From assembly GCA_965221815.1 (NCBI GenBank), contig OZ244915.1, forward strand, positions 694,119 to 726,118: 32,000 nt of DNA, given 5' to 3'. Below, piece by piece: positions 436 to 26,519 of the stretch (its first letter is position 1; the number at the start of each line of letters is the position of its first letter). Both the position numbers and the translations under genes were made by a program. Below the pieces are notes generated by a model that was not told the origin of the DNA, made no database searches, and saw only the letters and a program-made list of their open reading frames with translations. This stretch comes from Paracoccaceae bacterium (GTDB lineage Bacteria; Pseudomonadota; Alphaproteobacteria; Rhodobacterales; Rhodobacteraceae).

Positions 436-581
436 CCACTCTCAAGATGAGCTAGGGGTACGCAAGGGGTCAAGAAAAGATAATGACACGACAATCGGAA
501 ATCACCGAAAAGTTTTCAACCGATGTTGGCCAAAAATCCAAAAATCACCGTTTCAAACGAAAGATGTTAAAGATGGGTTAA
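436..581. repeat. Mid-GC repeat, copy A (146 bp), immediately 3' of the P450-fusion gene; copy B is at 6466-6580
   Basis: The shared blocks are ccactctcaagatgag..aggggt.cgcaagggg...acgacaatcggaaatcaccgaaaa...gaacgaaa.atgttaaagatgggttaa. Copy A carries an extra ~30 bp internal segment. The P450 stop codon (578-580) lies inside the last bases of the repeat. Confidence 0.85.
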
Positions 582-2611
582 GCGGGCAATTGGTTGATCT
601 GTTTGTGGATGTAGATCTTTTGCTTTTCGGTCACCGAGAGAGTCGGGAAAGGTGAAATCTTCACGGCTTGATCCCTTGATTGAGGGACAAACTCATAATG
701 ATGAGCAACAGTCATGATATTCAAAATCAATTTTAACTGCGCCCAAGTGAAACCATTACAGGTATGGGTACCCAAACCGTAAGGACAATATTCGATTTTC
801 CGATGCTCACGCCGTGGCGGAAGATAACGGTCGATATCAAACTTGAGCGGCTCAGGAAAACATGACTCCATGTAATGGCACGCAGTTTGCACGATATGCA
901 CGCGATTTCCAAGAGGTAACGCATAGTCCTCAATCGTGCAGGAATTAGAAATGTTTCGAACTTGCATTGAGACAACAGGATACAGGCGCAAACATTCCAT
1001 CAAGAAACGACGTGTAATATCGAAACGTTCTGCGGAAAAACTCTCTTTCTCGATTTTTCCATTTTTTATCACATTATGGGATTCCTCACGAATTTTTGAA
1101 GCGATATCTGGTTGACGGGCCAATTCGATGAGTGCAAATCCAAAAACATCCCCGACATACATACTTTGCAAAAGAGGTGCGGCTGCGAGCATGAAAGGCA
1201 GATTTTGTTCAGGGAGAAATTGTGGATCACTTTCATGCAAACTGAAGAGGTCATTGGCCAGTTCGCTTATCGCATGCGTACGCATCATCATTGGCGTATG
1301 ATTCTGCTCAATCTGTTGTACAAATGTTTGTAATAGCCTAAACCGCCGCTTCATTTCCGGTGTGCGGGCAAAAAATTTTGGAATGATATTGCCGACTAGG
1401 CTGATTGAGGCTCTCTCCTTGAATGCTATAATGTCTTTAAAAATATCCTGGCAATCAGCGTTGACTAGTATCTGAGTCATCTGCATATTGATCATCAGCC
1501 GTGAAAATTCACGCACACCGAATGCTTGTCCTGGACTCAATTGGTGAGTCTTGAGGAATTTCAATGCCAAACCATATATCTCATCAATGCGCTCATAAAA
1601 TCTTGTTTTGGTATAAACCTGACTAAATATCTTACGTAGCCGGAAATGATCGGCACCATCAAGAGAAGTGATGAGACCGCTAGCCCCGTAAGCCTCTTCC
1701 AACTGACGAAAATAGTTTCCAGATGTCATGTACAAGCGGGCATTCCGTTGACACCATGCATTGACTTTGGGGCCAGAAATAAAGATAAACGGTTCCTTGA
1801 ACGGTGGTTTAAACTGGTAAACTGGACCATACTTCTCCGTAAGATCAGCAAACATTGCAGGCATATTCCCATGATGCGCGTACGCGCTCATGATACTGCC
1901 GATTGACGGGATAGTCGGAATTCTCTTGGAGAGAGGCGTCTTACGAAAACTTGGAGAAATGACCGTTTCTTGAACACTTGAAAAGATTGCACGACTAATC
2001 AATTCGACATCGCAAAGCCACTTGATCCGCTCTTCTTCCCTTTCCGAAATATCAAATATGAAGCGTAGAACATCGCAAGTTTGGAGTAGACTTACGATCA
2101 GCGAATCTCTTGGATCGGGAATTGTATCGGTGTAGATAACTTCTGCAATCCGTGACTTCACGTACTTCCAGGCAGTTTCATTCTCGGAAATACTGTGCAT
2201 TTCCGTGTACCAGAGTGAGTTGTTGATCGCGTAGAACCCCCCCGAATAGTAAGAGAAAATTCCTATTTTCACTAATCGTTTGAGTGTTAAATCAACAATC
2301 AATTCCGAATGTTGTGCAAGATCTTCGATCCAATAGCCCGTCGTCCGCTTTTCTCGACTGGAAGCAATCGAATTCAAGCAGAAGTCCAGTATCGAATCAC
2401 CTGTTTCATTTTGATTGATGACAAACATTGAATTTTCATCGGTATCAATTCGCCCATGAAGAGACAGATCTGCAAGCACCGCCCCAACAACTGCGCAATT
2501 CAGAGTCCAGCCACTCACTTGGTAGAAGTAGCCACTATGCTCATTGAGAATCATCACCAGGAAATCTTCCAAGAGATTCAACGAGCGTTTTTCTGTATCG
2601 ATGTCCAACAT
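578..2611 (-). CDS. Fusion protein: N-terminal GPP34/GOLPH3/Vps74-like domain + C-terminal cytochrome P450
   Basis: A 677-aa ORF on a lower-GC islet. Residues ~1-215 fit the GPP34 pattern (LLEDFLVMILNEHSG, AVVGAVLADLSLHGRID, DPRDSLIVSLLQTCDVLRFIF). Residues ~235-677 are a P450, with K-helix ExxR (ECLR), a PERF-like FDIDRY and the Cys-ligand loop PYGLGTHTCNG. Confidence 0.88.
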   Translation of the reverse strand: MLDIDTEKRSLNLLEDFLVMILNEHSGYFYQVSGWTLNCAVVGAVLADLSLHGRIDTDENSMFVINQNETGDSILDFCLNSIASSREKRTTGYWIEDLAQHSELIVDLTLKRLVKIGIFSYYSGGFYAINNSLWYTEMHSISENETAWKYVKSRIAEVIYTDTIPDPRDSLIVSLLQTCDVLRFIFDISEREEERIKWLCDVELISRAIFSSVQETVISPSFRKTPLSKRIPTIPSIGSIMSAYAHHGNMPAMFADLTEKYGPVYQFKPPFKEPFIFISGPKVNAWCQRNARLYMTSGNYFRQLEEAYGASGLITSLDGADHFRLRKIFSQVYTKTRFYERIDEIYGLALKFLKTHQLSPGQAFGVREFSRLMINMQMTQILVNADCQDIFKDIIAFKERASISLVGNIIPKFFARTPEMKRRFRLLQTFVQQIEQNHTPMMMRTHAISELANDLFSLHESDPQFLPEQNLPFMLAAAPLLQSMYVGDVFGFALIELARQPDIASKIREESHNVIKNGKIEKESFSAERFDITRRFLMECLRLYPVVSMQVRNISNSCTIEDYALPLGNRVHIVQTACHYMESCFPEPLKFDIDRYLPPRREHRKIEYCPYGLGTHTCNGFTWAQLKLILNIMTVAHHYEFVPQSRDQAVKISPFPTLSVTEKQKIYIHKQINQLPA

Positions 2612-2846: not shown

Positions 2847-3005
2847 TCACAGGCGGGGTTTAGGGTTCGGGGAGGATGTCTTTGAGGGCGGGCGTCCCAA
2901 GGTGCGGCCCTGTTTGCGGGCCGATTTCAGTCCATCCCGTGTCCGTTCTGAGATCAGTCGGCGTTCAAATTGCGCGATGACGGCGAAGACATGAAGCACC
3001 AGCTC
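2847..3005 (-). pseudogene. Serine recombinase (resolvase/invertase) fragment
   Basis: The reverse-strand translation ELVLHVFAVIAQFERRLISERTRDGLKSARKQGRTLGRPP matches the conserved A.FER.LI.ERT..GL..A...G...GRP segment of resolvases. There is no N-terminal catalytic domain and no HTH. Confidence 0.6.
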
Positions 3006-3009
3006 CCCC

Positions 3010-3709
3010 GTGGCTGAGCTGGTCTTGTGGCTCTCTTTTTGGGGCCGGCCGGCTGGGTTTGGGTGGTTTCCATTTGCCGATCGGTTTTTGGGAGACCCGA
3101 TGATAGGCGCGGTGGGTGCGGTCCGGTTGCATGCAGGCGGCGATGCGGGCCATGGCGTTGCTCACAAAGGTGGCGCAGCTGTGGGTGAAGGTGAGGAGCC
3201 TGTCCTCGAATCCTGCAAAGACGGCGGTGAGGGCGTTTTTCTGGTTGGCCCGGAGACCGCCGCGTGTCTGCCGTGTGTCCGATCCGTTGATCAGTCTCTC
3301 GCAGTCATTGGACATCAGCCGTGCCCGGGCGATCAGCGTCAGTCCGGCGGTGAGTTCCTGTTGGACCCCGCGCAGGCTCTGGGCGTGGAAGGCTTCCATC
3401 GTGAGGGTCTGTTTGACGGTCTTGTCGAGCTCTTCGATCGACCAGCGTTGGTGATACAGGTCGGCGAGGCTCTGCGGGGAATAGGTCTGTGCATTCAGGA
3501 GCGTGGTGACCAGGATCCAGGGGGATGCGGGGGCTTTGATCACACGAATCCGGCGCGGTTCTGTGTCGCTTGTTGTGGCTGTCAAGGTGAGACCTGTGTC
3601 CTGCAGATCACTGCGGATGATCTGATCAATGTGGGTATCGGCCTGGCGGCGGATGCGGAAGACGGCATGAAGCCCGTTGTCGATATGGTGCGCGAGCAGG
3701 GCCCGGGAC
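3010..3709 (-). pseudogene. IS4-family DDE transposase, C-terminal two-thirds (element 'IS4-X'); its N-terminal part continues at 5290-5470 across a nested IS
   Basis: The translation reads ...LLAHHIDNGLHAVFRIRRQADTHIDQ...RIRVIKAPASPWILVTTLLN...LADLYHQRWSIEELDKTVKQ (the Y..RW.IE..fK.lK motif of IS4 transposases). It is interrupted at 3709/3710 by the Tn5-like element. Confidence 0.75.
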
Positions 3710-5289
3710 CTGTCACTAGGCCACAGTTGACACTGTCATCGACTGTTGTCGCTTGAATGACCTGTAGGCAGCGGCTGTCATCAGCATGTATTTCATTCCT
3801 TTCCTGATCTTCTCGGTCCCGGGCAGCGGTTGGCGCCTTGACGGGATGAATCCGACAGTGCGTCCGACATCAATGGCGGCCTGGCGAATGGTGAGGTCAT
3901 CGCAAGGCGGGGCCCGGGTATCGGTGAATTTGTATTGGTGTTACATGTCGATAGACAGGGCAGTGAGCTCGTCTTCGTCGAAGACGTCGCGGGCGGGACG
4001 GTCCGGCTCGGCCCTGGCGGCCCGTTGGATATCAAAGACCCGCCAGGCCATGATGGCATCGAAAGCCAGGCAACGGCGCAGATCGTCGGCCTCATCAAGG
4101 CGGCGGTTCTCGATACGGGTCTGCGGCTTCAGGGTCTTGAAGTCTTCCTCAATCGCCCAGCGGGTGGCTTGCTGGTCTCGGTGGCGAGGACGGCGTTCCG
4201 GCTGGGGGTTCAGGGAATGGAGCCTGAATCCCCGTTCCAGCCGGGTGTCCACACCGGGCCGTTCGGCACCTCACTGGCGATCCCGATGGTCTCGGGTTGG
4301 GCACCGGTTGTCGTCACAATCCCATCCGCCCTGTCGGCCCGACTCGCGCCGCTGTGCACGAAGGCCCGCTCACCGCGGACAGTCCCGTCGCCATCAAGGA
4401 TGCAGACCTGGTGGGTCTGTGACCCCTTTCGACCGGATCAAGGCCGGTGAGGCCGCCCAGGTCCGCGTAGCGCTAGCCACACGGGCCATCCGCATCTCCA
4501 CCGTGGCGTCACGCGCCGGGCGGGGCCCGGGTCTCGCCTTGCGACCACGTGAGGCCGTGATGCCGCCGCCCGGCATGGCAACGCACCAGAATCCCGGCGG
4601 CCTCCGGGGCCTTGGCCTGGGCCCTGAACATCGCCCAGAGATCGCCTTCCCGGTCGCAGACCGCGATGATCCGGGTGCCGGGGCGGATCCCGCATCGGTC
4701 TGCGGGTCACCGGTCCGGCGCGGCCTGTCTGTCTCTCCGGTCATCCAGCACGGATCACCGGCGGGACGTTGGCACAGACGCCGGCGCCACGCCGCCTCGA
4801 GGGGACGCATCCAGACCATCGGCCCGACCTCCGCACCGGCATACACCCCTGACACCCGTCCTGCCATCTCCCAGCCCGCCGCCACGTAACAGCTGCCCCG
4901 CTGCGCGGCATTCACATAGCTGTACGCCAGAACCGGGCGCACGCCATGGGCGGCGGCCCAGTCGTCCGCCAGACGCACCGTCACTTGCCCCAGCACATGG
5001 CTGGCCAGATTGGGCACCCGCAGGCCCGGCAGGAGCAAAAACCGTGAGTTGTTGACCACCCGGCGCAGATTGGCAACCCGGGCCCGATCACACCCGCCCA
5101 CATAACCATCCCGGGCCGCCTGATGCCAGCTGGCCAGATGGAAGGTCAGGCCCCCGATACGGCCCAGACCGGCCTCAGCCGCATCCGCCAGCCACGCCAT
5201 CGTATCAGCACTGAATTGTCGCATGCCTATCTGCATGCGAATCAAATGACCTCAACAAAGATACGGTGTCAAGTGTGGACCAGTGACAG
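3710..5289 (-). mobile_element. Tn5/IS50-like IS4-family element, copy 1 (decayed), with terminal inverted repeats and a 9-bp target duplication
   Basis: IR at 3710-3740 is ctgtcactaggccacagttgacactgtcatc. The reverse complement of 5261-5289 is ctgtcactggtccacacttgacaccgtat. The flanking 9-mers are gcccgggac (3701-3709) and gcccgggag (5290-5298). Internal remnants include VCDREGDLWAMF (second D), RWAIEEDFKTLK (E motif) and the C-terminal GRTVGFIPSRRQPLPG. Several frameshifts and an in-frame stop are present. Confidence 0.85.
4846..5236 (-). pseudogene. DUF4338 (DruA-like) N-terminal module of Tn5-like element copy 1
   Basis: MQIGMRQFSADTMAWLAD...RVVNNSRFLLLPGLRVPNLASHVLGQVTVRLADDWAAAHGVRPVLAYSYV...CYVAAGW carries the NNSRFLiLP / VpNLAS / DW...P.L signature of DUF4338. 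The ATG lies 53 nt inside the IS end, the same spacing as in copy 2 (12302 vs 12355). Confidence 0.75.
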
Positions 5290-5470
5290 GCCCGGGAGAC
5301 GTATCCCCGGTCATAAACGATCACATCATCGGGTCTGAGCAGACGGGTATGATGGCGGGCCAGGGCGCGTTCGTCGCCGCCCGGGACGAGTGCCACATCA
5401 TCGGGCAGCTTGTCCTGCAAGCGATACAGGCAGCTGACCAGGCCCTGGGGGTCGGCGGCGGCCGGGGCTG
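5290..5470 (-). pseudogene. IS4-X transposase N-terminal part (first catalytic D region)
   Basis: ...LLRPDDVIVYDRGYVSRA (the DRGY motif). Removing 3710-5289 and one 9-bp duplication joins it in frame to ...LLAHHIDNGLHAVFRIRRQ at 3700 and downward. Confidence 0.75.
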
Positions 5471-6475
5471 GGTGGTGCCGATGTGCTGCCATCCGGCCGC
5501 CTTGTCGGCGCGGCCCTGAAACCGCGCGGTCTCGACAAAGGTCTCGATCAGAACCGGACGGTCATGGTACTTGTCCTGCCAGTCATCGGCCAACTGCCGG
5601 GCCGCCAGGCCCAGGGCGGTCGCGGCGAGATTCGGCACGCGCACCCCGTCGAAAATCACGAAGCGCGAATTGACCACAACGAGATGACGGGTCTTGTTCT
5701 TCTGCGCGTGGCTCCAGCCGATCAGGCTGTCCCGACAGCGCAGATTGCGCGTCATCGCCGCGAACAGCAGACACCCCAGGATCCGCTGCTGCTGATCGCA
5801 GATCAAAGACCTTCATCTGACAGCCGAACGGATGCTTGTCGCCGAGATAGTGATGACAGTCGACCGACGCATTCCAGATCTTCGCCGCCGCGGGACGCGC
5901 CACCCGCTGGAGCATGATCGGCTGAAGATCCGCCAGCGAAGCGGTCACAGGGGGTCTTCCGGATCGCCAGACGCAGATCCACCGCGTCCAGGCCGGACGC
6001 CCGTGTCTTCACACGATTCACCGGCAGGGTCAGGATGCCCATCTCCTCCAGGCGCTCGAGGGCCCCGAGGCACGCCTGGAACTTCGGGCGACCATCGGGA
6101 TTGCGCCATTTGAGCGTCGCGGAGATCACGGCGGGTGGACCCGCTGTCGTGGCCCCCGGCCTCTGTCATCTGTGTCTGGAGGACAGGAACGCCCGGATCG
6201 GCCAGGACGGAGATCAGCCGATGGCCGTCCGCCTGGCACCCCTGTGGGGGAAGATGGGTCGCCATCCCCGTTCTGATGCCCGCGCCCGGACGATCGATTC
6301 CACTTCGGTCAGGCCGGCATATGCCCGCCACCAGCAAAACCTCCTCAATCCGCCGACAGACGGACGCCCATGTCTTCCTCCCGGCGACTCGGCACCAGCC
6401 AGTGTGTGATCCGCCGGGATCCATCGGGCGCGGTGCCGGTCTGTGTGGCACGCATGAACAGGACCCCACTCTCAA
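5470..6475 (-). pseudogene. Full-length-type DUF4338 (DruA-like) gene of IS4-X, split over three frames
   Basis: Three pieces are visible. LKWRNPDGRPKFQACLGALERLEEMGILTLP comes from ORF 5803..6129. IWNASVDCHHYLG comes from ORF 5583..5948. RILGCLLFAA...RDSLIGWSHAQKNKTRHLVVVNSRFVIFDGVRVPNLAATALGLAARQLADDWQDKYHDRPVLIETFVETARFQG comes from ORF 5321..5806. Confidence 0.75.
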
Positions 6476-6605: not shown

Positions 6606-8933
6606 TCATATGACCTTTTTCGCCGGATCCACCGGTAAATTCTTGATGCGGTCCAAGGCAACAAGGAGAGGCGGAAACAAGAGAAAATCAGCGGCCAGTG
6701 CAATTACTACCGTAATTCCAACCAGAGTACCAAGTGTTTGATTGGTCGCTAGGTCGGAGAGCCCAAAGACCAAAAAACCAATAGCGAAAATCAAGGTTGT
6801 GGTCAAGAGTGGCCCACCGACCATACGAAAAGTCGGTGCAATTGCATCCCGTGGCTGTAGTCCCTCGGCGCGTGACCTTAGATATTTTGACATGATATGA
6901 ATCGTGTCATCTACAATAATGCCAAAAGCAATGGCGGTCACGATAGAGGCAGCCACACTGACAGTTCCAACAGCAAATCCCCAGATTGCCATCGCCATGA
7001 CCGCCGGCAAGAAGTTGGGAATCAAGCTGAGCAGCCCCAATCGGACGCTCTTAAAAATATATACGAGAATCAACGAAACCACTGACATTGCTGCAATAGT
7101 ACCAATGAGCATTCTCTCAATATTTAGAATCACGGAATAGGCACCGATAATCGTCACCCCTGTAGCCATGGTATGGATTTCGGGTGTATTCTCCTGCAGC
7201 CACTGCGACGCTCTCTGGTCAAGTTCAATTTGTTCCCGTACTGACAATTCATCAATTACTGCAGTCAACCGAGAGGATGACCGTTCAAAGTTTATACGCT
7301 GATTCAGGTCGAGTCCCACCGGCAGCGAGAATTCATAGAGTAACAGATACTGTGCTGCCAGATCAGAATTTTCAGGAAGACTGTCAGGATTGTCGATATC
7401 CGTACGCAAATTGCGGTTCAGCCGCTTCATGATATCTGCAATGGAAGTGACATGCGAAACCTCCGGCTGCGTGCGGAGCCAACTGGCAAATGAATCCACG
7501 CGCTGCAGATAGTCAATATCCGTAACGCCGCCCTCACGTCCAGAATCCAGCGAATACTCAAATACGTCAAGGCCAGAAAATCTCTCGCTGATGAAATCAG
7601 CTGATTGACGCAACTCATTTGCCTCATTCAAAAGCTTCAGATTATTGTCATTCAACTCGATTCGTGCAATTCCAATTGCGCTGAACATTGTTATAATAAC
7701 AAATGCCCCGATGAGAATACGACTCTTTGCAACAACAAAGCTCGCGAGTTTTGTGAAGAGTTCAGCCTGTTTTGTCGACCCGGCTTTGACCCGCATTGGC
7801 ATAACGCACATCATAGCTGGCAATAGCGTCACACTATAAATGAAGGCGCACATAGATCCAAAGGCGACAATATTTCCTAAGACTTGGAAGGGCGGCATGT
7901 CCGAAAAATTCAGGCTGAGAAATCCAATGGCGGTGGTGACTGATGTCAGAAAGATTGGACGTAGGTTAACTTGCAGCGCATGACGTGTTGCAGCTCTGCG
8001 GTCCTTGCCCTCTCGCATTCCGTCCATCATTCCCTGGATCAGATGTACAGAATGTGCGACCGCAATTGCCATCAAAACGAAGATTGCCCCCCCGCTCTCA
8101 CCATAGAATTTCAGGCCGACCCATCCGGCAAATCCCATTCCTGAGGTCATTACTGTTGCTAATACTGCGATAATGCCGAGGACACCCCAAGCTGAACGCA
8201 GGACGATAGTAGCGACCGCAATCATTGCCAAGAGCACGGCTGGGCCCAGAACAGAAGAATCGTGATTCAAGGCGTTGCGTATTTCCTGATCAATCAGCAG
8301 TTCACCATAGATGTGGTATTCTGTATCTGGGTTCAATTCAGATTGCGTTTTAATAATTTCTCGCAGCGTTTCGACCGTTCGGACTTTGCTTTCCTGGCGA
8401 TTCTCTTCTGGAACGACCAGGCTGACAACGAGGCCACCGAGACCGCCATCACGAGAAACGAAGCGCCCCCGTGTTTCCATGGAATTAAGGGCGATTTCCT
8501 GAACGCGCGCAATGGCAAGATCATCGAGCGAAGCGGCATCCTCGACAAGGGGATCAACCAAAAGGTCATCACCAATTCCTTCGGAATGCGAGTAATTGGT
8601 CAGCGAATCAACGCGTGTTGCGAAAGGCGTATTCCACAAAGCATCGGTTAGCTGCTCAATTATAACCAGAGCATGACGCGAGAAGATGGACTCACCTGGG
8701 GGATCAACGACCACGAGCACCGTATCAGAGACTGCGTATGTGTCTTCGAAACGCTCCAGATTGACGAGATGTGGGTCATTTTCGCTGAAGTGATTGCGTA
8801 TGCCAACATCGACGACAATGAGGTTTTGAAGCCCGGCAGCAACTGCCACAGCGAGCAAGAGTGAGGCTGTGGCCACACGCCAAGGCCGATTAACAATAAG
8901 GTCAAGAAAGTGAGCCATGACAAAAGCCATCAT
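6606..8933 (-). CDS. RND-superfamily exporter of the MMPL/HpnN/COG1033 type (sterol-sensing-domain-like TM bundles)
   Basis: A 775-aa ORF with a two-fold architecture: TM1, a large soluble loop and a 5-TM bundle, repeated twice. Hydrophobic blocks include GPAVLLAMIAVATIVL, AIAVAHSVHLIQG, FLPAVMAMAIWGF and AFGIIVDDTIH. Size and layout are typical of MMPL/HpnN-like lipid exporters. Confidence 0.85.
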   Translation of the reverse strand: MMAFVMAHFLDLIVNRPWRVATASLLLAVAVAAGLQNLIVVDVGIRNHFSENDPHLVNLERFEDTYAVSDTVLVVVDPPGESIFSRHALVIIEQLTDALWNTPFATRVDSLTNYSHSEGIGDDLLVDPLVEDAASLDDLAIARVQEIALNSMETRGRFVSRDGGLGGLVVSLVVPEENRQESKVRTVETLREIIKTQSELNPDTEYHIYGELLIDQEIRNALNHDSSVLGPAVLLAMIAVATIVLRSAWGVLGIIAVLATVMTSGMGFAGWVGLKFYGESGGAIFVLMAIAVAHSVHLIQGMMDGMREGKDRRAATRHALQVNLRPIFLTSVTTAIGFLSLNFSDMPPFQVLGNIVAFGSMCAFIYSVTLLPAMMCVMPMRVKAGSTKQAELFTKLASFVVAKSRILIGAFVIITMFSAIGIARIELNDNNLKLLNEANELRQSADFISERFSGLDVFEYSLDSGREGGVTDIDYLQRVDSFASWLRTQPEVSHVTSIADIMKRLNRNLRTDIDNPDSLPENSDLAAQYLLLYEFSLPVGLDLNQRINFERSSSRLTAVIDELSVREQIELDQRASQWLQENTPEIHTMATGVTIIGAYSVILNIERMLIGTIAAMSVVSLILVYIFKSVRLGLLSLIPNFLPAVMAMAIWGFAVGTVSVAASIVTAIAFGIIVDDTIHIMSKYLRSRAEGLQPRDAIAPTFRMVGGPLLTTTLIFAIGFLVFGLSDLATNQTLGTLVGITVVIALAADFLLFPPLLVALDRIKNLPVDPAKKVI

Positions 8934-9000: not shown

Positions 9001-9064
9001 GGATTGTGGTTCTCGTCTGGCGGATTTGTGAATTTTCAACCTGTTGAAAATGCGTGGTTTTCGG
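9001..9064 (+). mobile_element. IS-A-like left terminal fragment, 68 bp upstream of the RND start codon
   Basis: gtggttctcgtctggcggatttgtgaattttcaacctgttgaaaatgcgtggtttt matches the IS-A left end at 15131-15190, including the subterminal palindrome ttttcaac-ct-gttgaaaa. Homology stops at ~9064, where IS110-type DNA begins. Confidence 0.75.
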
Positions 9065-9243
9065 GTTATGCTCGAATCTGGGTGACGGCCAGATCAGCAT
9101 CCCTGTCTGGAGTCCAGTCATTTTTGGGGTCATTCCCCAGCGTTATTCATGTTTTTCCCCACTGTTTCCCCACGTCGGGCACATGGAGCCTGATCCGCTT
9201 CAGCCACGGCTGGCGGGAGTCCGGGATCGGGTCTGTGCGGGGG

Positions 9244-10130
<887 letters not shown>

Positions 10131-10369
10131 TGATGATCCTCGGATCTGACATCCAAGGCGGTGTCGGTCCCACACGCCCGGTGGGACTGTCATCCCGCAC
10201 CCCCGCAGCTGATCAACCGCGGGGGTTCCGCTTTTGGAAGCGTGCAAAAGACGCGGGGCTGCGCAAGCCGAAGGCCACAGAATTCCTGCGTGATCCACAG
10301 GATTTTTGCACCCAACCACCACCTCCTCTTTTGTATTGATTCCTGATTCGAAGACATATGAGGCGGGGT

Positions 10370-10719
10370 CCTGAAACTGTCTGATTCCGTCCTGGAATTC
10401 AACGCCTTTGATGACGGCGGCGAGATGCTCTGGCCCGGACAGGCGGTGCCACTTTGATTTGGCGGGCATCATCAGCTTATCCACCATGACCCGTGTGGTC
10501 TTTCGGCTTAGACAACCGCGTGTCTTCCGGGTGCGGTTCCGCACTGTCGCAAAGACACTCTCCACGGGATTGGTGGTCCGGATATGTTTCCAAAGCTCCG
10601 CCGGGAAGTCGGTAAAGGCGAACAGTTCGTCCTTGTCCGGGGTCAACTGACCGACGGCCTTGCTGTCTTTGAGCCCATCAGACGTCACAAACACATCAAA
10701 CGCGGTCGCGGTCTGGGTC
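10370..10719 (-). pseudogene. IS256-family transposase, C-terminal part (upstream part at 12365-12475, across nested Tn5-like copy 2)
   Basis: TATAFDVFVTSDGLKDSKAVGQL...LFAFTDFPAELWKHIRTTNPVESVFATVRNRTRKTRGCLS...KWHRLSGPEHLAAVIKGVEFQDGIRQ. Confidence 0.8.
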
Positions 10720-12355
10720 CTTGCAACGGTTCACACTTGTATAGGGGATTTCATTCCAGTTGTTTTTCGCCGATGGCATCACGCACCTGGATTCCCCAGT
10801 TGAGTCGTTCGAGTCCCTGCCAGACCTTTTTCACTCCGGGTCGTGGCTGGCGTTTCGTCGGGTGGGCACCGACGAGGCGTCCGAGGTTGATGACGAAGCT
10901 CTGGATCGTGGGGATCTCGCCCCTCTCCATCCTTTCGACGCCCCTGTGGCCCTGGGCCTCCAGCAGGGTGTGGAGCAGGAGCCTGACGTCCCTTTCGGGG
11001 CAGATATCGGTCGCCGGGGTCTCTGGACGTTCCCGCGCGCGCATGGTGATGTCGGCGACATGGCAGGCGGTGACGGCGTCGAAGGCCAGGCATTTGCGCA
11101 GGTCGTCGGCGGCGTCGAGTCTGCGGTCCGTGATGCGGGTGCCGGACTTGAGGGTTTTGAACCAGGTTTCGATTATCCATCTTGTCCTGTACCAGTCCAG
11201 CACGGTGGTGGCGTGGACGGCGTCGGTTTCCCCCTGTGCCGGGCGTGCGGTCGTGAGCAGCAGCCAGTGCAGTGGCTCCGTGCCGTCGGGGGCGTCGGTC
11301 TCGGTGGCGGAGACGGCGCGCATCGTCAGCGGTTTCGTGCGCTTCCTTTCCTCCTGCGGCGGCAGGAGCGTGACCTCCGCGACCCGGATTTCCAGGCGGG
11401 CGGTGCGCGCCTTTCGGGCCCGCGGGCCTCCGGCGGCCGGGATGACCAGTTCCGACACCGCGATGGCGGGCCGGGCCGCGACGTGCGGCTCCAGAATGTG
11501 ATCCATGGACACTCCCGGGTTCGACAACAGCCGGTACGCGACCGTTTTGGCCGCCGCCACCGGGAAGATGACCGGCAGCTCCTCCCCCATATTCTCCAGC
11601 CAGGCGCGCCCCATGTCAACGATCCGGCGGCGGATCCGCCCGTCGGTGTGGCCGGATCGTCCGGACTCACGCGCGGCCCAGTCGATGTCCATGCCGTCAT
11701 AGGCGCCCGCCAGCGCGCCGACCGGGCGCCGCTCCACGTGGCGCAGCACCGCCCGCCAGCGCGCCGACCGGGCGCCGCTCCACGTGGCGCAGCACCGCGC
11801 GCCAGCCGTCCTCCAGTGCCAGCACCCGCACCGTTCCCGCCGCGGACCGGCGCCCGCTGCCACGCCCGGCGCAGCTCCAGCCCGCGCGGTGGTAGCAGTA
11901 TCCGTTGTGCTCCGGGCCGACATGGGTGTCGGCCGCCACGGGACGAACCAGATACCGGGCCTCCCAATCGTCCGCCACCCGCGCCACCGCCATGTGCAGG
12001 ACCGCCGACGCCAGGCCGTCCACCCGGACGCCGCCGAGCAGGAGGAACCGGTGGTTGCAGATGACGCGCCCGATGTTGGCGGCGCGGGCCCCGGCGGACC
12101 AGCCAATCCAGGCGTCCCGTGCCGCCAGCCTCCAGGCCGCTGAGCCAAAGCCGATACCGCCAAGGACGCCGTGGTGCTCCGCACGGATCCAGTCGCGCAC
12201 CTGCCCGCGGCCCAACGCGTGCCGACTCAGACCGCCGGAGCGAAGCGCCCCGGCCAACCAGTCAAGCGTCTGCGAATCGAAATGGCGAAGACCAACCTGC
12301 ATAACCCGCCATATAAACCAACCGAATCACCGATATAAGTATGAAATGTTGCAAG
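10720..12355 (-). mobile_element. Tn5/IS50-like IS4-family element, copy 2: a DUF4338::transposase fusion with an internal deletion, flanked by a perfect 9-bp target duplication
   Basis: The left end is cttgcaacggttcacacttgtatagg (10720-). The reverse complement of the right end is cttgcaacatttcatacttatatcgg (-12355). The TSD gtctgggtc occurs at 10711-10719 and 12356-12364. ORF 11697..12302 is the DUF4338 module (RVICNHRFLLLGGVRVDGLASAVLHMAVARVADDW). ORF 10751..12184 holds the Tn5-like N-terminus (DIDWAARE...GRIRRRIV...AYRLLSNPGVSMDHILEPH) and C-terminus (WYRTRWIIETWFKTLK...GRLVGAHPTKRQPRPG). The region carrying the first two catalytic D residues is missing. Confidence 0.85.
11705..11796. repeat. 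Perfect 46-bp tandem duplication (2 units) inside Tn5-like copy 2
   Basis: gcccgccagcgcgccgaccgggcgccgctccacgtggcgcagcacc occurs at 11705-11750 and again at 11751-11796. It encodes WRAVLRHVERRPVGALAG twice. 46 is not divisible by 3, so it shifts the frame between ORF 11697..12302 and ORF 10751..12184. Confidence 0.9.
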
Positions 12356-12364
12356 GTCTGGGTC

Positions 12365-12475
12365 TCCGCCATCCCGATGTCTTGCCGATCCGATTTGGCC
12401 TTGTCATGCCGTGACTTGGGAAGAGCATGGGTGACGTGGGCTGTCTTGTGGACCCAGCCGCGCGGCTCCCGGGTG
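12365..12475 (-). pseudogene. IS256-family transposase, upstream fragment of the copy at 10370-10719
   Basis: The reverse-strand translation is WVHKTAHVTHALPKSRHDKAKSDRQDIGMAETQ. After removal of 10720-12355 and one TSD copy, it joins in frame to TATAFDVFVTSDG. Confidence 0.75.
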
Positions 12476-12830: not shown

Positions 12831-13883
12831 ATGGCAGTATGGATTTCTAAGAATATGTTCCGCCTCATTTCCAAAAATGACAACCGCTCGCTTGAACAAC
12901 TTTCCCAGGCTGAAGTAAAATCTGTAGCCGACGAATACCAAGCGATTTATGATGTTGGCGAGGATGAAAGAAAAAAACAGTACAGTTCATTCATAAATCA
13001 TTATTACGATCTGGCGACTGATTTTTACGAATTCGGATGGGGTCGGTGCTTTCACTTCGCTCCCCGCCACCGGAACGAAAGCTTCAAGGATTCCCTGATC
13101 AGGCACCAACATTTTCTTGCTGATCAGCTGGCACTTGAACCGGGAATGCAGGTGCTTGATCTCGGTTGCGGTGTCGGTGGGCCGTTGAGCAATATCGCTC
13201 ACTATTCGGGTGTCAACATAGTCGGTCTTAACAATAACGCCTATCAAATCGAGCGTGCCAAGCTGCATACTAAGGACGTCAGTACCCAATGTCGCTTCAT
13301 CAAGGCCGATTATATGCAGATTCCCGAAAAAGACGATTGCTTCAACGCTGTCTATGCCATCGAAGCGACCCCTCACGCACCGGATCGAACAAGACTTTAC
13401 CGGGAAATTTTACGGGTCTTGCGTCCGGGCGCGCGTTTCGCCAGCTACGAGTGGTGCCTGACCGATAAGTTTGATGCAGTCAACACTAGGCATCAGCGAA
13501 TCGTAGACGATATAATGAGAGGTAACGCACTTCCTGATATTCCGAGCACGTCGGAAATTGACGCCGCTTTGCAATCAGCCGGATTCGAACTTCTGGATAC
13601 GCAAGACCGAGCCGAAGAGGCAGATCGGCAAACTCCTTGGTATCGCCCATTGCAGGGGCGTGACTTTTCTCTTTCCAGTATTCCGCGCACACCATGGGGT
13701 CGCGCTCTGGTAAACTTGACTTTGCGGGCAGGGGAAGCCGTGCAGGTGTTTCCAAAAGGGTCTCGTGCGGTCAGTACGTTTCTCAACAGGGGGGCAGACG
13801 CACTGGTCGAAGGGGGCAAATCAGGGATTTTTACGCCTATGTATTTCGTGTTGGCCCGTAAACCTTTGAATTCGGGCGATTAA
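12831..13883 (+). CDS. Sterol C-24 methyltransferase (ERG6/SMT-family) homologue, SAM-dependent
   Basis: A 350-aa ORF that is collinear with yeast ERG6 as I recall it. It shows DFYEFGWGRCFHF (SMT region I), LDLGCGVGGP (SAM-binding), YAIEATPHAP (region III), ASYEWCLTDKFD (region IV), IPWY-like TPWYRPL and the C-terminal GGKSGIFTPMYFVLARKP. Confidence 0.92.
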   Translation: MAVWISKNMFRLISKNDNRSLEQLSQAEVKSVADEYQAIYDVGEDERKKQYSSFINHYYDLATDFYEFGWGRCFHFAPRHRNESFKDSLIRHQHFLADQLALEPGMQVLDLGCGVGGPLSNIAHYSGVNIVGLNNNAYQIERAKLHTKDVSTQCRFIKADYMQIPEKDDCFNAVYAIEATPHAPDRTRLYREILRVLRPGARFASYEWCLTDKFDAVNTRHQRIVDDIMRGNALPDIPSTSEIDAALQSAGFELLDTQDRAEEADRQTPWYRPLQGRDFSLSSIPRTPWGRALVNLTLRAGEAVQVFPKGSRAVSTFLNRGADALVEGGKSGIFTPMYFVLARKPLNSGD

Positions 13884-14042
13884 GGGAGCGCTACAAAATA
13901 TATGCTCTGCCTGTCACCATATGCCGGAGTGCCTTAAGCATTGGGGCTTATATACTTGAGCCTCTTGCACAATTATCGCGGTTCCGGCGGCCGTGGTCGG
14001 TCATCCGCTTTGGCCGGCCTGCCGGAGCCGGAACCGGCGGCG

Positions 14043-15164: not shown

Positions 15165-15259
15165 CCTGTTGAAAACGCGTGGTTTTTTGAATCCTGATGG
15201 TGTGCGTTTGGGTGGTTTGGCGGAATTTTTGGAAATATCCCGGAATTTGACCTGATCGG

Positions 15260-16995: not shown

Positions 16996-17121
16996 CTGAT
17001 CGGGGTGGAGTCGTTGGGTGTGTCTGCCGGATCAGGTCGCGTGTTCCCGAATGAAAACCCTCCATCATGGAGACCTCTGAGACGGAACACGCGGATGACC
17101 GATTGACACTCTGAAAAGACT

Positions 17122-18473: not shown

Positions 18474-18709
18474 TTCGCCAAATGAAACCGATCAGGAATC
18501 AAGCAGGGTCCAAACCCAGCCAGAGGGGAATCACTCCCGGTCGGGCACAATATTGAATCTTGAAAGTAAATATGGCATCAAGATTAGTTGTAAATAGAAC
18601 CTGCAGAAATGCCATCTGATTGTTGAATCAGGTGGTTTGGAATAGATGACCTTTCATCATCGGTATCTTTCTTATTCTCGCTGTTATACAATTTGATTAA
18701 GGCACGGTC

Positions 18710-19789
18710 GTGGACAATTCTCAAACTTATCTGATTTCGGACAATCCCGTATTTGTTACCGGTTCTTCCGGTCATGTCGGGGCAAACCTGATTCGGCGAT
18801 TGCTGCTGGATGGGCAGAGAGTACGCGTTTTTGTACGACAGCAAAGCAAGAATGAAAGCCTTCAGGGCCTTGATGTCGAGACCGCCTATGGAGATCTTCG
18901 CAACCTGGACGAAGTCCGAAAAGCAATGGAGGGCTGCCAAGGCGTTTATCACGTGGCCGCTAAGGTTTCGACGATCAAGGGTAACCGCGCACATCGACGT
19001 GAAATTTTCGACTGTAATGTCATGGGCACACGTAACGTCTTGCAGGCAGCAAAGGAAACTGAGGCTGGTCGGACAGTGGTCACCGGCTCTTTCAGCGCAG
19101 TGGGCTACAATTTGGATAATCCATCTCAGCCCAGTAACGAGATGATGCCTTTCTACCCAATGGAACTGACAATGCCTTATGAGCGAAGCAAGTCATTTAC
19201 CGAACATGAATGCTGGCGAGCGGCAGCGACTGGTCAGGAGGTCATAGTCGCAACAAGTTGCGCGGTAGTTGGAGGCGCAGATTTCGTCCCGTCGAGATTG
19301 GGAAAAACCTTATGTGATTATGCCAATGGAAAGCTGCGCGCCTATATCGAAGGTGGCTTCGAGTTTGTCAATGTCCATGACCTTGTGCAAGGGCATATTC
19401 TCTGCATGCAAAAAGGAAGGTCAGGAGAAAAGTATATTTTTAGCACCGAATATAAAAAGATATCGGAAATCATTGGCCTATTTGAGGACATCACCGGTGT
19501 GCGACGCCCTCAGCGGCAGTTTCCGGCTGCTTTGATGCTGGCATTTTCTGAAGTTATAAGTGGATACCTGAGCCAGTTTCATCCTGACTTTCCACAACGG
19601 TTCACTCCCGGTGCCATCCGACTTCTCAAGAAATGCCGTCATGCCGACACCAGCAAAGCAAGACAGGAGCTCGGCTATCAACCGACATCCATTCGTCACG
19701 CCATCATTGATGCCTATACGTTTCATCACGCGCGCGGAGTGATCACCAATCCAAATGCCAAGCCGCCGCACAACGGGGATCATGATTAG
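18710..19789 (+). CDS. NAD(P)-dependent extended SDR (epimerase/dehydratase family; HpnA-like / 3beta-hydroxysteroid dehydrogenase-like)
   Basis: A 359-aa ORF with a GTG start. It has the Rossmann motif VFVTGSSGHVGANLIRRLL, the NVMGTRNVL block and the catalytic YxxxK (PYERSK). Overall collinearity matches HpnA-type proteins (LEGLDVE..GDL.D, LNGK..AY...G...V.V.D...GH). Confidence 0.85.
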   Translation: MDNSQTYLISDNPVFVTGSSGHVGANLIRRLLLDGQRVRVFVRQQSKNESLQGLDVETAYGDLRNLDEVRKAMEGCQGVYHVAAKVSTIKGNRAHRREIFDCNVMGTRNVLQAAKETEAGRTVVTGSFSAVGYNLDNPSQPSNEMMPFYPMELTMPYERSKSFTEHECWRAAATGQEVIVATSCAVVGGADFVPSRLGKTLCDYANGKLRAYIEGGFEFVNVHDLVQGHILCMQKGRSGEKYIFSTEYKKISEIIGLFEDITGVRRPQRQFPAALMLAFSEVISGYLSQFHPDFPQRFTPGAIRLLKKCRHADTSKARQELGYQPTSIRHAIIDAYTFHHARGVITNPNAKPPHNGDHD

Positions 19790-20685: not shown

Positions 20686-20865
20686 CTATTAGCCACAAGT
20701 TTTGTCTGGACGTAAATTCGGATATAGGTAGTGTCTGTCAAAAAACCCCCTTTTTTTGCAGATTCCAAGCGTGTGCGTTCGATTTTTTTTCTGGAAGTCG
20801 AAGTTTTTGGGTCCAATCGCCTCAAAATTCCATATCCAATCACTTGTGTTGGCCGGACGGGCGAT

Positions 20866-25929: not shown

Positions 25930-25930
25930 A

Positions 25931-26407: not shown

Positions 26408-26519
26408 GGCGGTTGCCAAAAGCAATTGCCCGATCGTGGCTGTATCAAATGTCAAGTTTGCCTATGAAAGGATATTTGCAAACCGCTGTTATCGTCTCTC
26501 AGTCGCAAGGGATGCGTAA

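What the first reader, a model, noticed from the sequence alone, without database searches (positions are those of the whole stretch)
578..2611. Unusual domain fusion: GPP34/GOLPH3-like domain fused to an atypical cytochrome P450
One uninterrupted 677-aa ORF joins two domains. The first ~215 aa resemble GPP34/GOLPH3/Vps74, which is a phosphoinositide-binding membrane-targeting module in eukaryotes and is of unknown function in bacteria. The rest is a complete P450 with ExxR = ECLR and the Cys loop YGLGTHTCNG.

I know of no described P450 with this N-terminal partner. In my by-eye alignment of the I-helix (LPFMLAAAPLLQSMYVGDVFGFALIELARQP against the usual (A/G)Gx(D/E)T(T/S)...P), the acid-alcohol pair used for O2 activation is replaced by hydrophobic residues (M-Y). 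That replacement is typical of P450s with non-canonical chemistry such as isomerase, peroxygenase or dehydratase types.

The fusion could tether the P450 to a membrane or lipid substrate.
Basis: partly seen in the sequence, partly recalled or inferred. Interest (0 to 1): 0.8.

Follow-up and report, generated by a model that had tools for sequence, protein, structure and literature searches.

The report
GPP34–P450 fusion in sterol clusters
The two-domain GPP34–cytochrome P450 protein is real but was already described in 2025 as a hallmark of sponge-symbiont bacteria; what appears to be new is that it sits inside bacterial sterol-making and sterol-export gene clusters and has lost the usual oxygen-activating residues, pointing to an unusual sterol-tailoring enzyme and not the proposed secreted host-manipulation factor.

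Summary
The ORF (578–2611, minus strand, 677 aa) is intact and joins a GPP34 domain (Pfam 78 bits) to a complete P450 (126 bits). The heme Cys, ExxR and FDxDRY are invariant in 35 homologues. The fusion is not novel: Microbiome 2025;13:4 describes 656 "GPP34_L" proteins exclusive to sponge symbionts and proposes a secreted PI4P-binding effector.

My evidence points elsewhere. Three of GOLPH3's four PI4P-pocket residues are lost (R90→I/V, R171→E, R174→I/V). The domain is strongly acidic, and there is no signal peptide or TM segment.

Of 52 distinct loci with at least 8 kb of flank, 62% carry a Patched/HpnN-like MMPL transporter, 40% a sterol C-24 methyltransferase, 54% a KshA-like Rieske oxygenase, and 50% at least one canonical sterol gene. 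Some sit beside complete clusters (SE::OSC, CYP51, ERG24, SdmA/B). The window holds the fusion, MMPL, SMT and an SdmB-like gene, split apart by IS elements.

Distant fused and unfused relatives keep AGxDT.

Best reading: a cytoplasmic, membrane-docked sterol-tailoring heme enzyme with non-canonical chemistry, coupled to sterol export. It belongs to a known family; the functional context appears unreported.

The parts
578..2611 (-). GPP34::cytochrome P450 fusion gene (677 aa + stop)
   Evidence: ORF; Pfam; 120 full-length homologues; AF2 model with mean pLDDT 84.4 and pTM 0.69
2015..2575 (-). GPP34/GOLPH3-like domain (residues 13-199). W35 = GOLPH3 W81; V42, E103 and V106 replace R90, R171 and R174. 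Predicted beta-hairpin 119-129 (FSYYSGGFYAI) with invariant G124 and F126.
   Evidence: Pfam 78.2 bits; phmmer hits only GOLPH3/Vps74; hhalign probability 94%; column counts; coordinates
1916..1966 (-). Inter-domain linker (residues 216-232, TVISPSFRKTPLSKRIP); low-confidence segment of the model
   Evidence: pLDDT falls to 58-68 over residues 211-230 and is below 50 at residues 223-226; coordinates
581..1915 (-). Cytochrome P450 domain (residues 233-677)
   Evidence: Pfam; profile hit to M. capsulatus CYP51 E 2.5e-24; Foldseek TM ~0.8 to BM3/CYP51/CYP17
1148..1168 (-). I-helix motif QSMYVGD (residues 482-488), replacing the canonical A-G-x-(D/E)-T. Y485 is at the acid position and V486 at the Thr position.
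986..997 (-). ExxR motif ECLR (E539 and R542 invariant)
752..784 (-). Heme Cys-ligand loop PYGLGTHTCNG (C618, H616 and G620 invariant)
6606..8933 (-). MMPL/HAE3 RND transporter (775 aa) with a Patched-type sterol-sensing domain; co-inherited partner of the fusion
   Evidence: Pfam MMPL 109 bits, Patched 24.1 (gathering score 23), Sterol-sensing 21.9 (gathering score 22.3); NCBIfam HAE3 151 bits, HpnN 109 bits; orthologues at 54-68% identity beside the fusion in 10 other loci
12831..13883 (+). Sterol C-24 methyltransferase (SMT/ERG6-like, 350 aa)
   Evidence: Pfam Sterol_MT_C 77.3 bits; an SMT lies near the fusion in 21 of 52 loci
18710..19789 (+). SdmB-like NAD(P)-dependent sterol C-4 demethylation component (359 aa)
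   Evidence: NCBIfam SdmB 307.8 bits, full length, best hit but below the equivalog cut-off of 600; 70% identical to the SdmB-like gene in the Arenicellales sterol cluster
2965..6475 (.). High-GC IS/transposase debris (DDE_Tnp_1, DruA-like ORFs) separating the fusion gene from the MMPL gene

Best explanation
The gene encodes a soluble, cytoplasmic, membrane-peripheral heme-thiolate enzyme. It is an accessory component of the sterol (cyclic triterpenoid) tailoring and export module of sponge-symbiont bacteria, here an uncultured Rhodobacteraceae. SHOWN: the protein has an intact P450 heme site, with Cys, ExxR and FDxDRY invariant. It has a GPP34 N-domain and no TM segment or signal peptide. Across many unrelated symbiont genomes its gene is co-located with a Patched/HpnN-like MMPL transporter, sometimes 68-77 bp upstream on the same strand. 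It is also co-located with a sterol C-24 methyltransferase, a KshA-like Rieske oxygenase, an FAD oxidase and, in some genomes, the complete SE::OSC-CYP51-ERG24-SdmA-SdmB sterol pathway. INFERRED: (i) the substrate is a sterol or sterol intermediate made or modified by the neighbouring enzymes; (ii) the P450 acts on it at the cytoplasmic face of the inner membrane before or during hand-over to the MMPL exporter; (iii) the acidic GPP34 domain is a docking module that places the P450 at the membrane or on a membrane protein (the MMPL is the obvious candidate), as GOLPH3/Vps74 dock on the cytosolic tails of membrane enzymes, and not a PI4P reader; (iv) because Tyr485 and Val/Leu486 replace the acid-alcohol pair while more distant relatives keep AGxDT, the chemistry departs from standard O2-activating hydroxylation. 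Candidates are substrate-assisted oxidation, desaturation, or rearrangement of an already oxygenated sterol. It is not the 14-alpha-demethylase, because bona fide CYP51 genes sit in the same clusters.
For: Domains and motifs. Complete P450 fold and two-domain model. Closest solved relative is the CYP51 of the sterol producer M. capsulatus, followed by other steroid/terpenoid P450s. No TM segment or signal (max KD19 1.47, against 2.45 for the MMPL). Neighbourhoods: all 12 independent genomic loci have an MMPL/RND gene, and these MMPLs are 54-68% identical to the window's. Census of 52 distinct loci with at least 8 kb of flank: MMPL 62%, SMT 40%, KshA-like Rieske 54%, any canonical sterol gene 50%, any of these 90%. 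Complete clusters: L017 has SMT, SE::OSC, CYP51, ERG24, SdmA, SdmB, fusion, MMPL; in L034/L080 the fusion lies 61 bp from the SMT of an SMT-SMT-SE::OSC-CYP51-ERG24-SdmA cluster. Neighbour identities: OSC TIGR03463 725 bits and SdmA 393 bits; CYP51 E 1e-99; KshA E 9e-28; SdmB-like 308 bits. Window content of MMPL, SMT and SdmB-like. The I-helix change is clade-specific. GPP34_L genes are transcribed in A. aerophoba symbionts, and rare GPP34::Rieske fusions exist, consistent with GPP34 acting as an oxygenase-docking module: PMC11706023.
Against: No biochemical data exist. Only half of the well-flanked loci carry a canonical sterol gene within 10 kb, and 5 of 52 have none of the marker genes. The clusters are HGT-prone, and the fusion gene has lower G+C than its flanks (mean -6.4 points), so co-location could partly reflect a shared mobile 'symbiosis island'. 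No ferredoxin or reductase partner was seen nearby. The MMPL is HpnN/HAE3-like, not BstA-like (18 bits), so its cargo could be another lipid. The docking role of the GPP34 domain is inferred by analogy only. In the window itself the genes are separated by IS elements, so co-transcription there is excluded.
Confidence: 0.62

Rival explanations
1. Published hypothesis: GPP34_L is a secreted eukaryote-like effector whose GPP34 domain binds host PI4P on phagosomes to block phagolysosome maturation, with the P450 domain having some auxiliary role in host modulation (PMC11706023).
For: The family is restricted to sponge symbionts: all 79 metagenome loci come from sponge metagenome projects (Petrosia, Sarcotragus and Aplysina for the LXNJ, LXNI and Ga0209021/J30088 series; MKWU from memory only), in line with PMC11706023. 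The GPP34 domain is homologous to the PI4P-binding GOLPH3/Vps74. W81 of the PI4P pocket is conserved. The genes are expressed in hospite.
Against: Three of the four GOLPH3 PI4P-pocket residues are replaced family-wide by I/V, E and I/V. The N-domain has a net charge of about -16, which is unfavourable for binding an anionic lipid. There is no signal peptide or TM segment. A heme enzyme that needs cytoplasmic redox partners is an unlikely secreted effector. The gene forms operon-like pairs with an inner-membrane MMPL and sits inside cytoplasmic sterol-enzyme clusters.
Confidence: 0.1
2. A generic secondary-metabolite or xenobiotic P450 whose link to sterol genes is coincidental: both belong to horizontally mobile, symbiosis-associated islands, so they end up near each other without sharing a pathway.
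For: The fusion gene has lower G+C than its flanks in most loci, the window is riddled with IS elements, and sterol clusters in sponge symbionts are reported to undergo HGT (PMC9531527). Halogenase, AMP-ligase and SDR genes lie near L008. Half of the loci lack canonical sterol genes within 10 kb.
Against: The same partner set (MMPL, SMT, KshA-like Rieske, FAD oxidase) recurs in tight, rearranged but conserved arrays with intergenic gaps of 20-100 bp across fusion proteins only 41-55% identical. The MMPL partner is more conserved than the fusion itself. The nearest solved P450 relatives are sterol/terpenoid enzymes.
Confidence: 0.15
3. A non-catalytic sterol-binding or sensing protein: the P450 domain, having lost its O2-activation residues, serves as a heme-based sterol receptor or loader that regulates or feeds the adjacent SSD-containing MMPL transporter.
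For: The acid-alcohol pair is lost in this clade only. The fusion is tightly paired with an MMPL carrying a Patched/sterol-sensing domain. No redox partner is nearby.
Against: The Cys ligand, H616, G620, ExxR and FDxDRY are all invariant, and a new invariant S-x-Y-x-G-D motif has been fixed in the I-helix. This looks like selection for a modified active site and not decay. Many catalytically active P450s lack the pair (general knowledge: EryF, CYP74, CYP8A, CYP152).
Confidence: 0.08

Closest known systems
GPP34_L proteins of sponge symbionts (Microbiome 2025;13:4, PMC11706023)
   Same: Identical architecture (N-terminal PF05719 + C-terminal PF00067, about 660-690 aa) and restriction to sponge-associated bacteria. 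The window protein is a member of this family.
   Different: The paper gives no role for the P450, never mentions sterols, MMPL or squalene, and proposes a secreted PI4P-binding effector. It does not separate the sub-clade with the Y-(V/L) I-helix from the GPP34_L proteins that keep AGxDT.
CYP51 sterol 14-alpha-demethylase (e.g. M. capsulatus CYP51, PDB 6MCW/6MI0)
   Same: Closest solved sequence relative (profile E 2.5e-24). Same fold. Encoded in the same sterol gene clusters.
   Different: Only 16% identity to 6MCW in the structural alignment. The CYP51 I-helix signature A-G-(Q/H)-H-T-S is replaced by Q-S-M-Y-V-G. True CYP51 genes (E 1e-99) coexist in the same loci, so this protein is not the demethylase.
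GOLPH3 / Vps74 (eukaryotic Golgi PI4P- and cargo-tail-binding adaptors)
   Same: Homologous fold (Pfam 78 bits; hhalign 94%). W81 is conserved. A beta-hairpin is predicted at the equivalent place. Plausibly the same logic of docking an enzyme at a membrane.
   Different: The arginines of the PI4P pocket (R90, R171, R174) are lost. The domain is strongly acidic. It is fused to an enzyme instead of acting as a free adaptor. The context is bacterial and cytoplasmic.
Bacterial triterpenoid export systems: HpnN (hopanoids) and BstABC (4-methylsterols, M. capsulatus; eLife 2024, PMC10942540)
   Same: An inner-membrane RND-superfamily transporter is encoded with the triterpenoid or sterol biosynthesis genes and is thought to move the lipid to the outer membrane. 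LolA-like (TP_0789/DUF1329) and outer-membrane partners occur in some loci.
   Different: The MMPL here is HAE3/HpnN-like (109-151 bits, below the equivalog cut-offs), not BstA (18 bits). No P450 or GPP34 partner has been described for HpnN or BstA.
P450 fusion enzymes (P450 BM3, CYP51-ferredoxin of M. capsulatus)
   Same: A P450 domain covalently joined to a second functional domain.
   Different: In those enzymes the partner is a redox domain, fused C-terminally in BM3 and in the M. capsulatus CYP51-ferredoxin. Here it is N-terminal, has no cofactor-binding family match, and is a membrane-adaptor fold.

Membership tests
Cytochrome P450 (PF00067) | Profile match above the curated threshold and a complete P450 fold | tested here: met
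   126.2 bits against gathering score 22.8; Foldseek TM(target) ~0.8 to BM3, CYP51 and CYP17
Cytochrome P450 (PF00067) | Proximal Cys ligand in the FxxGxxxCxG loop, the ExxR motif and the PERF-type motif | tested here: met
   PYGLGTHTC618NG, E539-C-L-R542 and FDIDR595Y. C618, H616, G620, E539, R542 and R595 are each 35/35 invariant
Cytochrome P450 (PF00067) | I-helix acid-alcohol pair (A/G-G-x-D/E-T/S) for O2 activation (typical, not universal) | tested here: not met
   Q-S-M-Y485-V486-G-D; Y is 35/35 and V/L 35/35. Distant fused and unfused relatives keep AGxDT
Cytochrome P450 (PF00067) | Heme binding with a 450-nm CO-difference spectrum | not testable with these tools
   Requires expression and spectroscopy
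GPP34 / GOLPH3 / Vps74 (PF05719) | Profile match above the curated threshold and homology to solved GOLPH3/Vps74 | tested here: met
   78.2 bits against gathering score 29.1; the only PDB hits with E < 0.05 are GOLPH3 and Vps74; hhalign probability 94% over 166 columns
GPP34 / GOLPH3 / Vps74 (PF05719) | PI4P pocket residues W81, R90, R171, R174 (human GOLPH3 numbering; residue list from my own knowledge of the 2009 GOLPH3/Vps74 papers) | tested here: not met
   W81 = W35 (35/35 W); R90 = V42 (I/V/A/T/S/M); R171 = E103 (31 E, 3 Q, 1 H); R174 = V106 (33 I, 2 V). The N-domain has K+R 14-23 against D+E 34-39. Caveat: a 10-residue gap adjoins the R171 region in the alignment.
GPP34 / GOLPH3 / Vps74 (PF05719) | Membrane-inserting beta-hairpin | tested here: inconclusive
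   The model predicts strands 119-122 and 126-129 (FSYYSGGFYAI) with invariant G124 and F126. Membrane insertion was not tested.
GPP34_L (GPP34 + cytP450 of sponge symbionts, PMC11706023) | Two-domain GPP34 + P450 architecture in one polypeptide | tested here: met
GPP34_L (GPP34 + cytP450 of sponge symbionts, PMC11706023) | Occurrence in sponge-associated bacteria | tested here: inconclusive
   All 79 metagenome loci come from sponge metagenome projects (LXNJ Petrosia, LXNI Sarcotragus, Ga0209021/J30088 Aplysina; MKWU assigned to Aplysina from memory only). The window's own sample (ERZ25070844, a Rhodobacteraceae MAG) could not be traced to a host with these tools.
CYP51 sterol 14-alpha-demethylase | High similarity to CYP51 and the I-helix signature A-G-(Q/H)-H-T-S | tested here: not met
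   Best PDB hit, but only E 2.5e-24 / 88.7 bits for the family profile, against E 1e-99 / 337 bits for the true CYP51 in L004. The signature is replaced by QSMYVG.
Bacterial sterol biosynthesis gene cluster (CSG; SE/OSC, CYP51, ERG24, SdmA/B, SMT) | Physical clustering with characterised sterol-pathway genes | tested here: met
   The window has SMT and an SdmB-like gene within 17 kb. 26 of 52 well-flanked loci carry at least one canonical sterol gene; complete clusters occur in L004, L017, L019 and L034/L080.
Bacterial sterol biosynthesis gene cluster (CSG; SE/OSC, CYP51, ERG24, SdmA/B, SMT) | Enzyme acts on a sterol substrate | not testable with these tools
   Needs binding and turnover assays or heterologous pathway reconstitution
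P450-redox-partner fusions (BM3 type) | The fused partner is a flavin or Fe-S redox domain | tested here: not met
   The only families matched are GPP34 and p450; there are no FMN, FAD or ferredoxin hits

The most novel reading that the evidence does not exclude
This GPP34::P450 sub-clade (I-helix S-x-Y-(V/L)-G-D) is a new kind of sterol-modifying heme-thiolate enzyme with non-monooxygenase chemistry. Candidates are side-chain desaturation or rearrangement, or isomerisation of oxygenated sterols. Its GPP34 domain would dock it physically onto a Patched-like MMPL exporter, forming a bacterial 'sterol metabolon' that makes and exports unusual side-chain-modified sterols in sponges. It would therefore bear directly on whether 'sponge' sterane biomarkers (24-isopropyl or 26-methyl steranes) can have a bacterial origin.
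Probability: 0.2. Interest if true: 0.85.

Novelty: new member of a known kind. Interest (0 to 1): 0.6.

Why it matters
Sponge symbionts are the one place where bacterial sterol side-chain alkylation has been shown (Brown et al. 2023). That result feeds the debate on whether Neoproterozoic 24-isopropylcholestane is an animal biomarker. The GPP34::P450 fusion is one of the most symbiont-specific protein families known, and its function is unknown. If it is, as the gene neighbourhoods indicate, an accessory sterol-tailoring enzyme coupled to a Patched-like exporter, three things follow. (i) The published 'phagocytosis effector' model for GPP34_L needs revising. (ii) Bacterial 'sponge' sterols may carry further oxidative modifications not yet looked for. 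(iii) GPP34, whose bacterial role is unknown, gains a testable function as a docking module for lipid oxygenases. All of this can be tested directly by heterologous expression alongside the already cloned SMT clusters.

Tried and rejected
1. Frameshift or artefact explanation for the fusion: rejected, because of the 120 full-length homologues and 75 distinct loci.
2. The fusion as the cluster's 14-alpha-demethylase: rejected, because true CYP51 genes sit in the same loci and the signature is absent.
3. The MMPL as a BstA orthologue: rejected (18 bits against a cut-off of 1400); it is HAE3/HpnN-like.
4. Foldseek against the PDB to pin down a P450 subfamily: uninformative. BM3, CYP17, CYP11B2, CYP51 and CYP46 all gave TM ~0.7-0.8.
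5. NCBIfam on the KshA_C-type Rieske, ERG4/24-like and TP_0789-like neighbours: no hits at 1e-10. The Rieske protein was then placed next to KshA by PDB search. The FAD oxidase matched only LkcE and a fatty-acid isomerase-like protein, which says nothing about its substrate.
6. The genome-contig scan with the single protein found only 2 loci, because the patterns were too specific. The alignment-based metagenome scan was far more productive.
7. Literature searches for any GPP34/GOLPH3-sterol link in bacteria found nothing beyond PMC11706023. The library is limited to open-access papers and bioRxiv, so absence is not proof.
8. I could not obtain model coordinates or PAE, so I did not determine which I-helix residues face the heme or how the two domains pack.
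9. The context of the distant, canonical-AGxDT GPP34_L proteins could not be examined, because the look-ups were exhausted.
Full report
OBSERVATION. The window holds an uninterrupted 677-aa ORF at 578..2611, on the minus strand. Pfam places a GPP34 domain at residues 13-199 (78.2 bits; gathering score 29.1) and a cytochrome P450 domain over the rest (126.2 bits; gathering score 22.8). The fusion is not an artefact. The 120 best database homologues (44-99% identity; 610-691 aa, 117 of them at least 658 aa) all carry both Pfam domains and cover 95-100% of the query. An AlphaFold2 model built on 35 of them is confident (mean pLDDT 84.4, pTM 0.69). It shows two folded domains joined by a low-confidence linker around residues 221-230, and a 32-residue I-helix at 468-499. 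Foldseek finds a complete P450 fold, with TM about 0.8 to BM3, CYP51 and CYP17.

PRIOR KNOWLEDGE. A 2025 paper (Microbiome 13:4, PMC11706023) describes 'GPP34_L', GPP34 plus cytochrome P450, as 656 of 663 long GPP34 proteins. It reports them only in sponge-symbiont genomes across many phyla, and as transcribed in Aplysina aerophoba symbionts. The authors propose that GPP34 proteins are secreted PI4P-binding effectors that block phagosome maturation, and they assign no specific role to the P450. The paper does not contain the words sterol, MMPL or squalene. I found no other paper linking GPP34/GOLPH3 proteins with bacterial sterol genes. That search covers open-access literature and bioRxiv only.

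THE P450 DOMAIN. In 35 family members (44-64% identical to the window protein), C618, H616, G620, E539, R542 and R595 are invariant, so this is a heme-thiolate protein under selection. A family profile finds the CYP51 of Methylococcus capsulatus as the closest solved structure (6MI0/7JJ1/6MCW; E 2.5e-24). Next come taxadiene hydroxylase, CYP90B1, CYP120 and CYP46A1, which are mostly sterol or terpenoid enzymes. It is not a CYP51, for two reasons. A true CYP51 from a neighbouring gene scores E 1e-99 against the same structures. And the CYP51 I-helix signature A-G-H-H-T-S aligns with Q-S-(I/M)-Y-(L/V)-G.

This register is fixed independently by an unfused relative, P0133, that reads A-G-H-Y-T. 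S483, Y485, G487 and D488 are invariant in 35/35 sequences. A search of 1.84 billion representatives with the P450 domain alone shows that fused proteins of about 650-690 aa extend down to 23-30% identity, and unfused proteins of about 440-460 aa appear from about 30% identity. Most of those distant relatives, fused or not, keep the canonical A-G-x-D-T. The loss of the pair is thus a derived, fixed trait of the window's sub-clade, not decay.

THE GPP34 DOMAIN. Its only solved relatives are GOLPH3 and Vps74. A profile alignment to GOLPH3 has probability 94%; I verified the reference sequence as identical to PDB 3KN1. Of the four PI4P-pocket residues known for GOLPH3 (W81, R90, R171, R174; my own knowledge of the 2009 structural papers), only the tryptophan is kept, as W35 in 35/35. 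R90 aligns to I/V/A/T/S/M, R171 to Glu (31/35) and R174 to Ile/Val (35/35). The domain is strongly acidic, with 14-23 Lys+Arg against 34-39 Asp+Glu. The whole protein has no TM segment or signal-like N-terminus: the maximum Kyte-Doolittle 19-residue mean is 1.47, against 2.45 in the MMPL control. A predicted beta-hairpin (119-129) with invariant Gly124 and Phe126 lies where GOLPH3 has its membrane-proximal hairpin. These data argue against PI4P recognition. They leave open a role in docking at a membrane or on a membrane protein.

GENOMIC CONTEXT, WHICH I JUDGE THE KEY RESULT. In all 12 independent genomic loci retrieved for diverse homologues, an MMPL or RND transporter lies within 10 kb. It is often immediately adjacent, and twice it lies 68-77 bp downstream on the same strand. 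Ten of these MMPLs are 54-68% identical to the window's MMPL over the full length, which makes them more conserved than the fusion protein itself. The window's MMPL (6606-8933) has a Patched-type sterol-sensing domain (24.1 bits; gathering score 23) and is HAE3/HpnN-like (151 and 109 bits), not BstA-like.

Sterol genes recur in these loci:
- a single-polypeptide squalene epoxidase::oxidosqualene cyclase (TIGR03463 725 bits);
- SdmA (393 bits);
- a true CYP51;
- ERG4/24;
- SMT;
- a Rieske oxygenase whose closest solved relative is the 3-ketosteroid 9-alpha-hydroxylase KshA (E 9e-28).

An alignment-based scan of 241 million metagenome records returned 79 loci. All come from sponge metagenome projects: LXNJ is Petrosia ficiformis, LXNI is Sarcotragus foetidus, and Ga0209021 and J30088 are Aplysina aerophoba according to Brown et al.'s supplement. 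MKWU I assign to Aplysina from memory only.

After merging duplicates there are 75 distinct loci, 52 of them with at least 8 kb of flank. Of those 52, 62% have an MMPL, 40% an SMT, 54% the KshA-like Rieske, 29% an LkcE-like FAD oxidase, 12% SE::OSC, 50% at least one canonical sterol gene, and 90% at least one of sterol gene, MMPL or Rieske. Gene orders are tight but rearranged. One common array is fusion, SMT, MMPL, Rieske, FAD oxidase (L016, L036, L041). L017 reads SMT, SE::OSC, CYP51, ERG24, SdmA, SdmB, fusion, MMPL. In L034/L080 the fusion lies 61 bp from the first SMT of an SMT-SMT-SE::OSC-CYP51-ERG24-SdmA array. That array has the same gene order as the A. aerophoba contig whose SMTs Brown et al. 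(PMC10070321) characterised. I could not show that it is the same contig.

The window itself carries the fusion, the MMPL, an SMT (12831-13883; Sterol_MT_C 77 bits) and an SdmB-like gene (18710-19789; 308 bits, best hit but below the equivalog cut-off). They are separated by high-GC IS debris. It reads as an IS-shattered version of the compact module seen elsewhere. TolB (98% identical to a 'Rhodobacteraceae bacterium' MAG protein) identifies the host as an uncultured Rhodobacteraceae.

MECHANISM (best explanation, confidence about 0.6). Shown: the protein has an intact heme-thiolate site, a GPP34 N-domain without the PI4P pocket, and no secretion or TM signal, and its gene is conservatively co-located with sterol-tailoring and MMPL genes. 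Inferred: the protein acts in the cytoplasm at the inner membrane on a sterol or sterol intermediate made or modified by its neighbours, in step with export by the MMPL. The acidic GPP34 domain is a docking module, by analogy with GOLPH3/Vps74 binding the tails of membrane enzymes. The rare GPP34::Rieske fusions reported in PMC11706023 and the P450 genes next to short GPP34 genes fit a general 'oxygenase adaptor' role. The Tyr485-Val/Leu486 I-helix implies non-canonical oxygen chemistry. I cannot say which reaction.

RIVALS. The published secreted PI4P-effector model (about 0.1) is supported by the sponge-specific distribution. It is contradicted by the lost arginines, the acidity, the absence of export signals and the operon-like pairing with an inner-membrane transporter. 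Coincidental co-location on mobile islands (about 0.15) is suggested by the low G+C of the fusion gene (mean -6.4 points against its flanks in 61 loci; -15.5 in the window) and by reported HGT of sterol clusters (PMC9531527). It does not explain the recurrent tight arrays across proteins only 41-55% identical. A non-catalytic sterol sensor or loader (about 0.08) fits the lost pair and the missing redox partner, but not the invariant catalytic scaffold and the newly fixed S-x-Y-x-G-D motif.

NOVELTY AND SCORE. The object is a member of a family already described bioinformatically, so it is a 'new member of a known kind'. Three things appear unreported in the literature I could search: the systematic embedding of this family in sterol synthesis, tailoring and export clusters; the loss of the PI4P pocket; and the clade-specific replacement of the acid-alcohol pair. 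These make a symbiont-specific protein of unknown function directly testable, and they touch the sponge-biomarker debate. For that reason I score interest at 0.6, not low.

Noticed in passing
window 2965-6475, 9004-12414, 13941-18550, 19969-24900: The sterol-related cargo genes are low in G+C (43.5-50%). They are separated by blocks of high-G+C (64-70%) IS/transposase debris (DDE_Tnp_1, UPF0236, Tnp_DNA_bind, a TnpB/Cas12f-like fragment), so the window looks like a compact sterol module blown apart by IS expansion.
   Followed up: partly
window 4394-5245 and 5321-5806 (-); L006 4200-6389: ORFs with a Druantia DruA domain (PF14236) lie inside the IS debris. In L006 one 729-aa protein combines DruA with DDE_Tnp_1, suggesting that a DruA-like domain is part of a transposase family in these symbionts.
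   Followed up: no
L006/L007 12980-16342, L011 12326-15778, L012 14775-18146, L017 978-4295, L019 2876-6232, L034/L080 15129-18470: Squalene epoxidase and oxidosqualene cyclase are encoded as one polypeptide of about 1,116-1,150 aa in several sponge symbionts. Brown et al.'s supplementary table shows ERG1 and ERG7 hitting the same gene, but the paper's main text never uses the word 'fusion'.
   Followed up: partly
L013 8622-9719, L016 16049-17128, L010 15965-17068, L008 10050-11090 and 24 further loci: A Rieske oxygenase with a KshA_C domain (closest solved structure: 3-ketosteroid 9-alpha-hydroxylase KshA, E 9e-28; no NCBIfam match) recurs next to the fusion, SMT and MMPL. It is distinct from SdmA and may be another uncharacterised sterol oxygenase.
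   Followed up: partly
L010 12065-13468, L016 17328-18734 and 13 further loci: An FAD amine-oxidase-family protein (closest solved: LkcE, E 3e-32) is a frequent member of the same module. Its role is unknown.
   Followed up: partly
L004 1-1961 and 8001-10019; L029, L044, L068: Tandem or nearby duplicate copies of the GPP34::P450 gene (41-44% identical to the window protein) occur in single loci, sometimes each with its own MMPL. L004 also has a remnant GPP34 fragment at about 5358-5654.
   Followed up: no
L011 16027-18086, L013 15970-18068, L019 15330-17628: A TP_0789/DUF1329-like (LolA-like) lipoprotein gene and a gene of about 420-430 aa with no Pfam match accompany the MMPL_A type transporter in these loci. 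They may be periplasmic or outer-membrane partners of a lipid export route.
   Followed up: no
window 25231-30826: An ordinary Tol-Pal cluster (TolQ-like MotA/ExbB, TolB, Pal/OmpA, CpoB-like TPR protein). TolB is 98% identical to a protein from a Rhodobacteraceae MAG, which gives the host taxon.
   Followed up: yes
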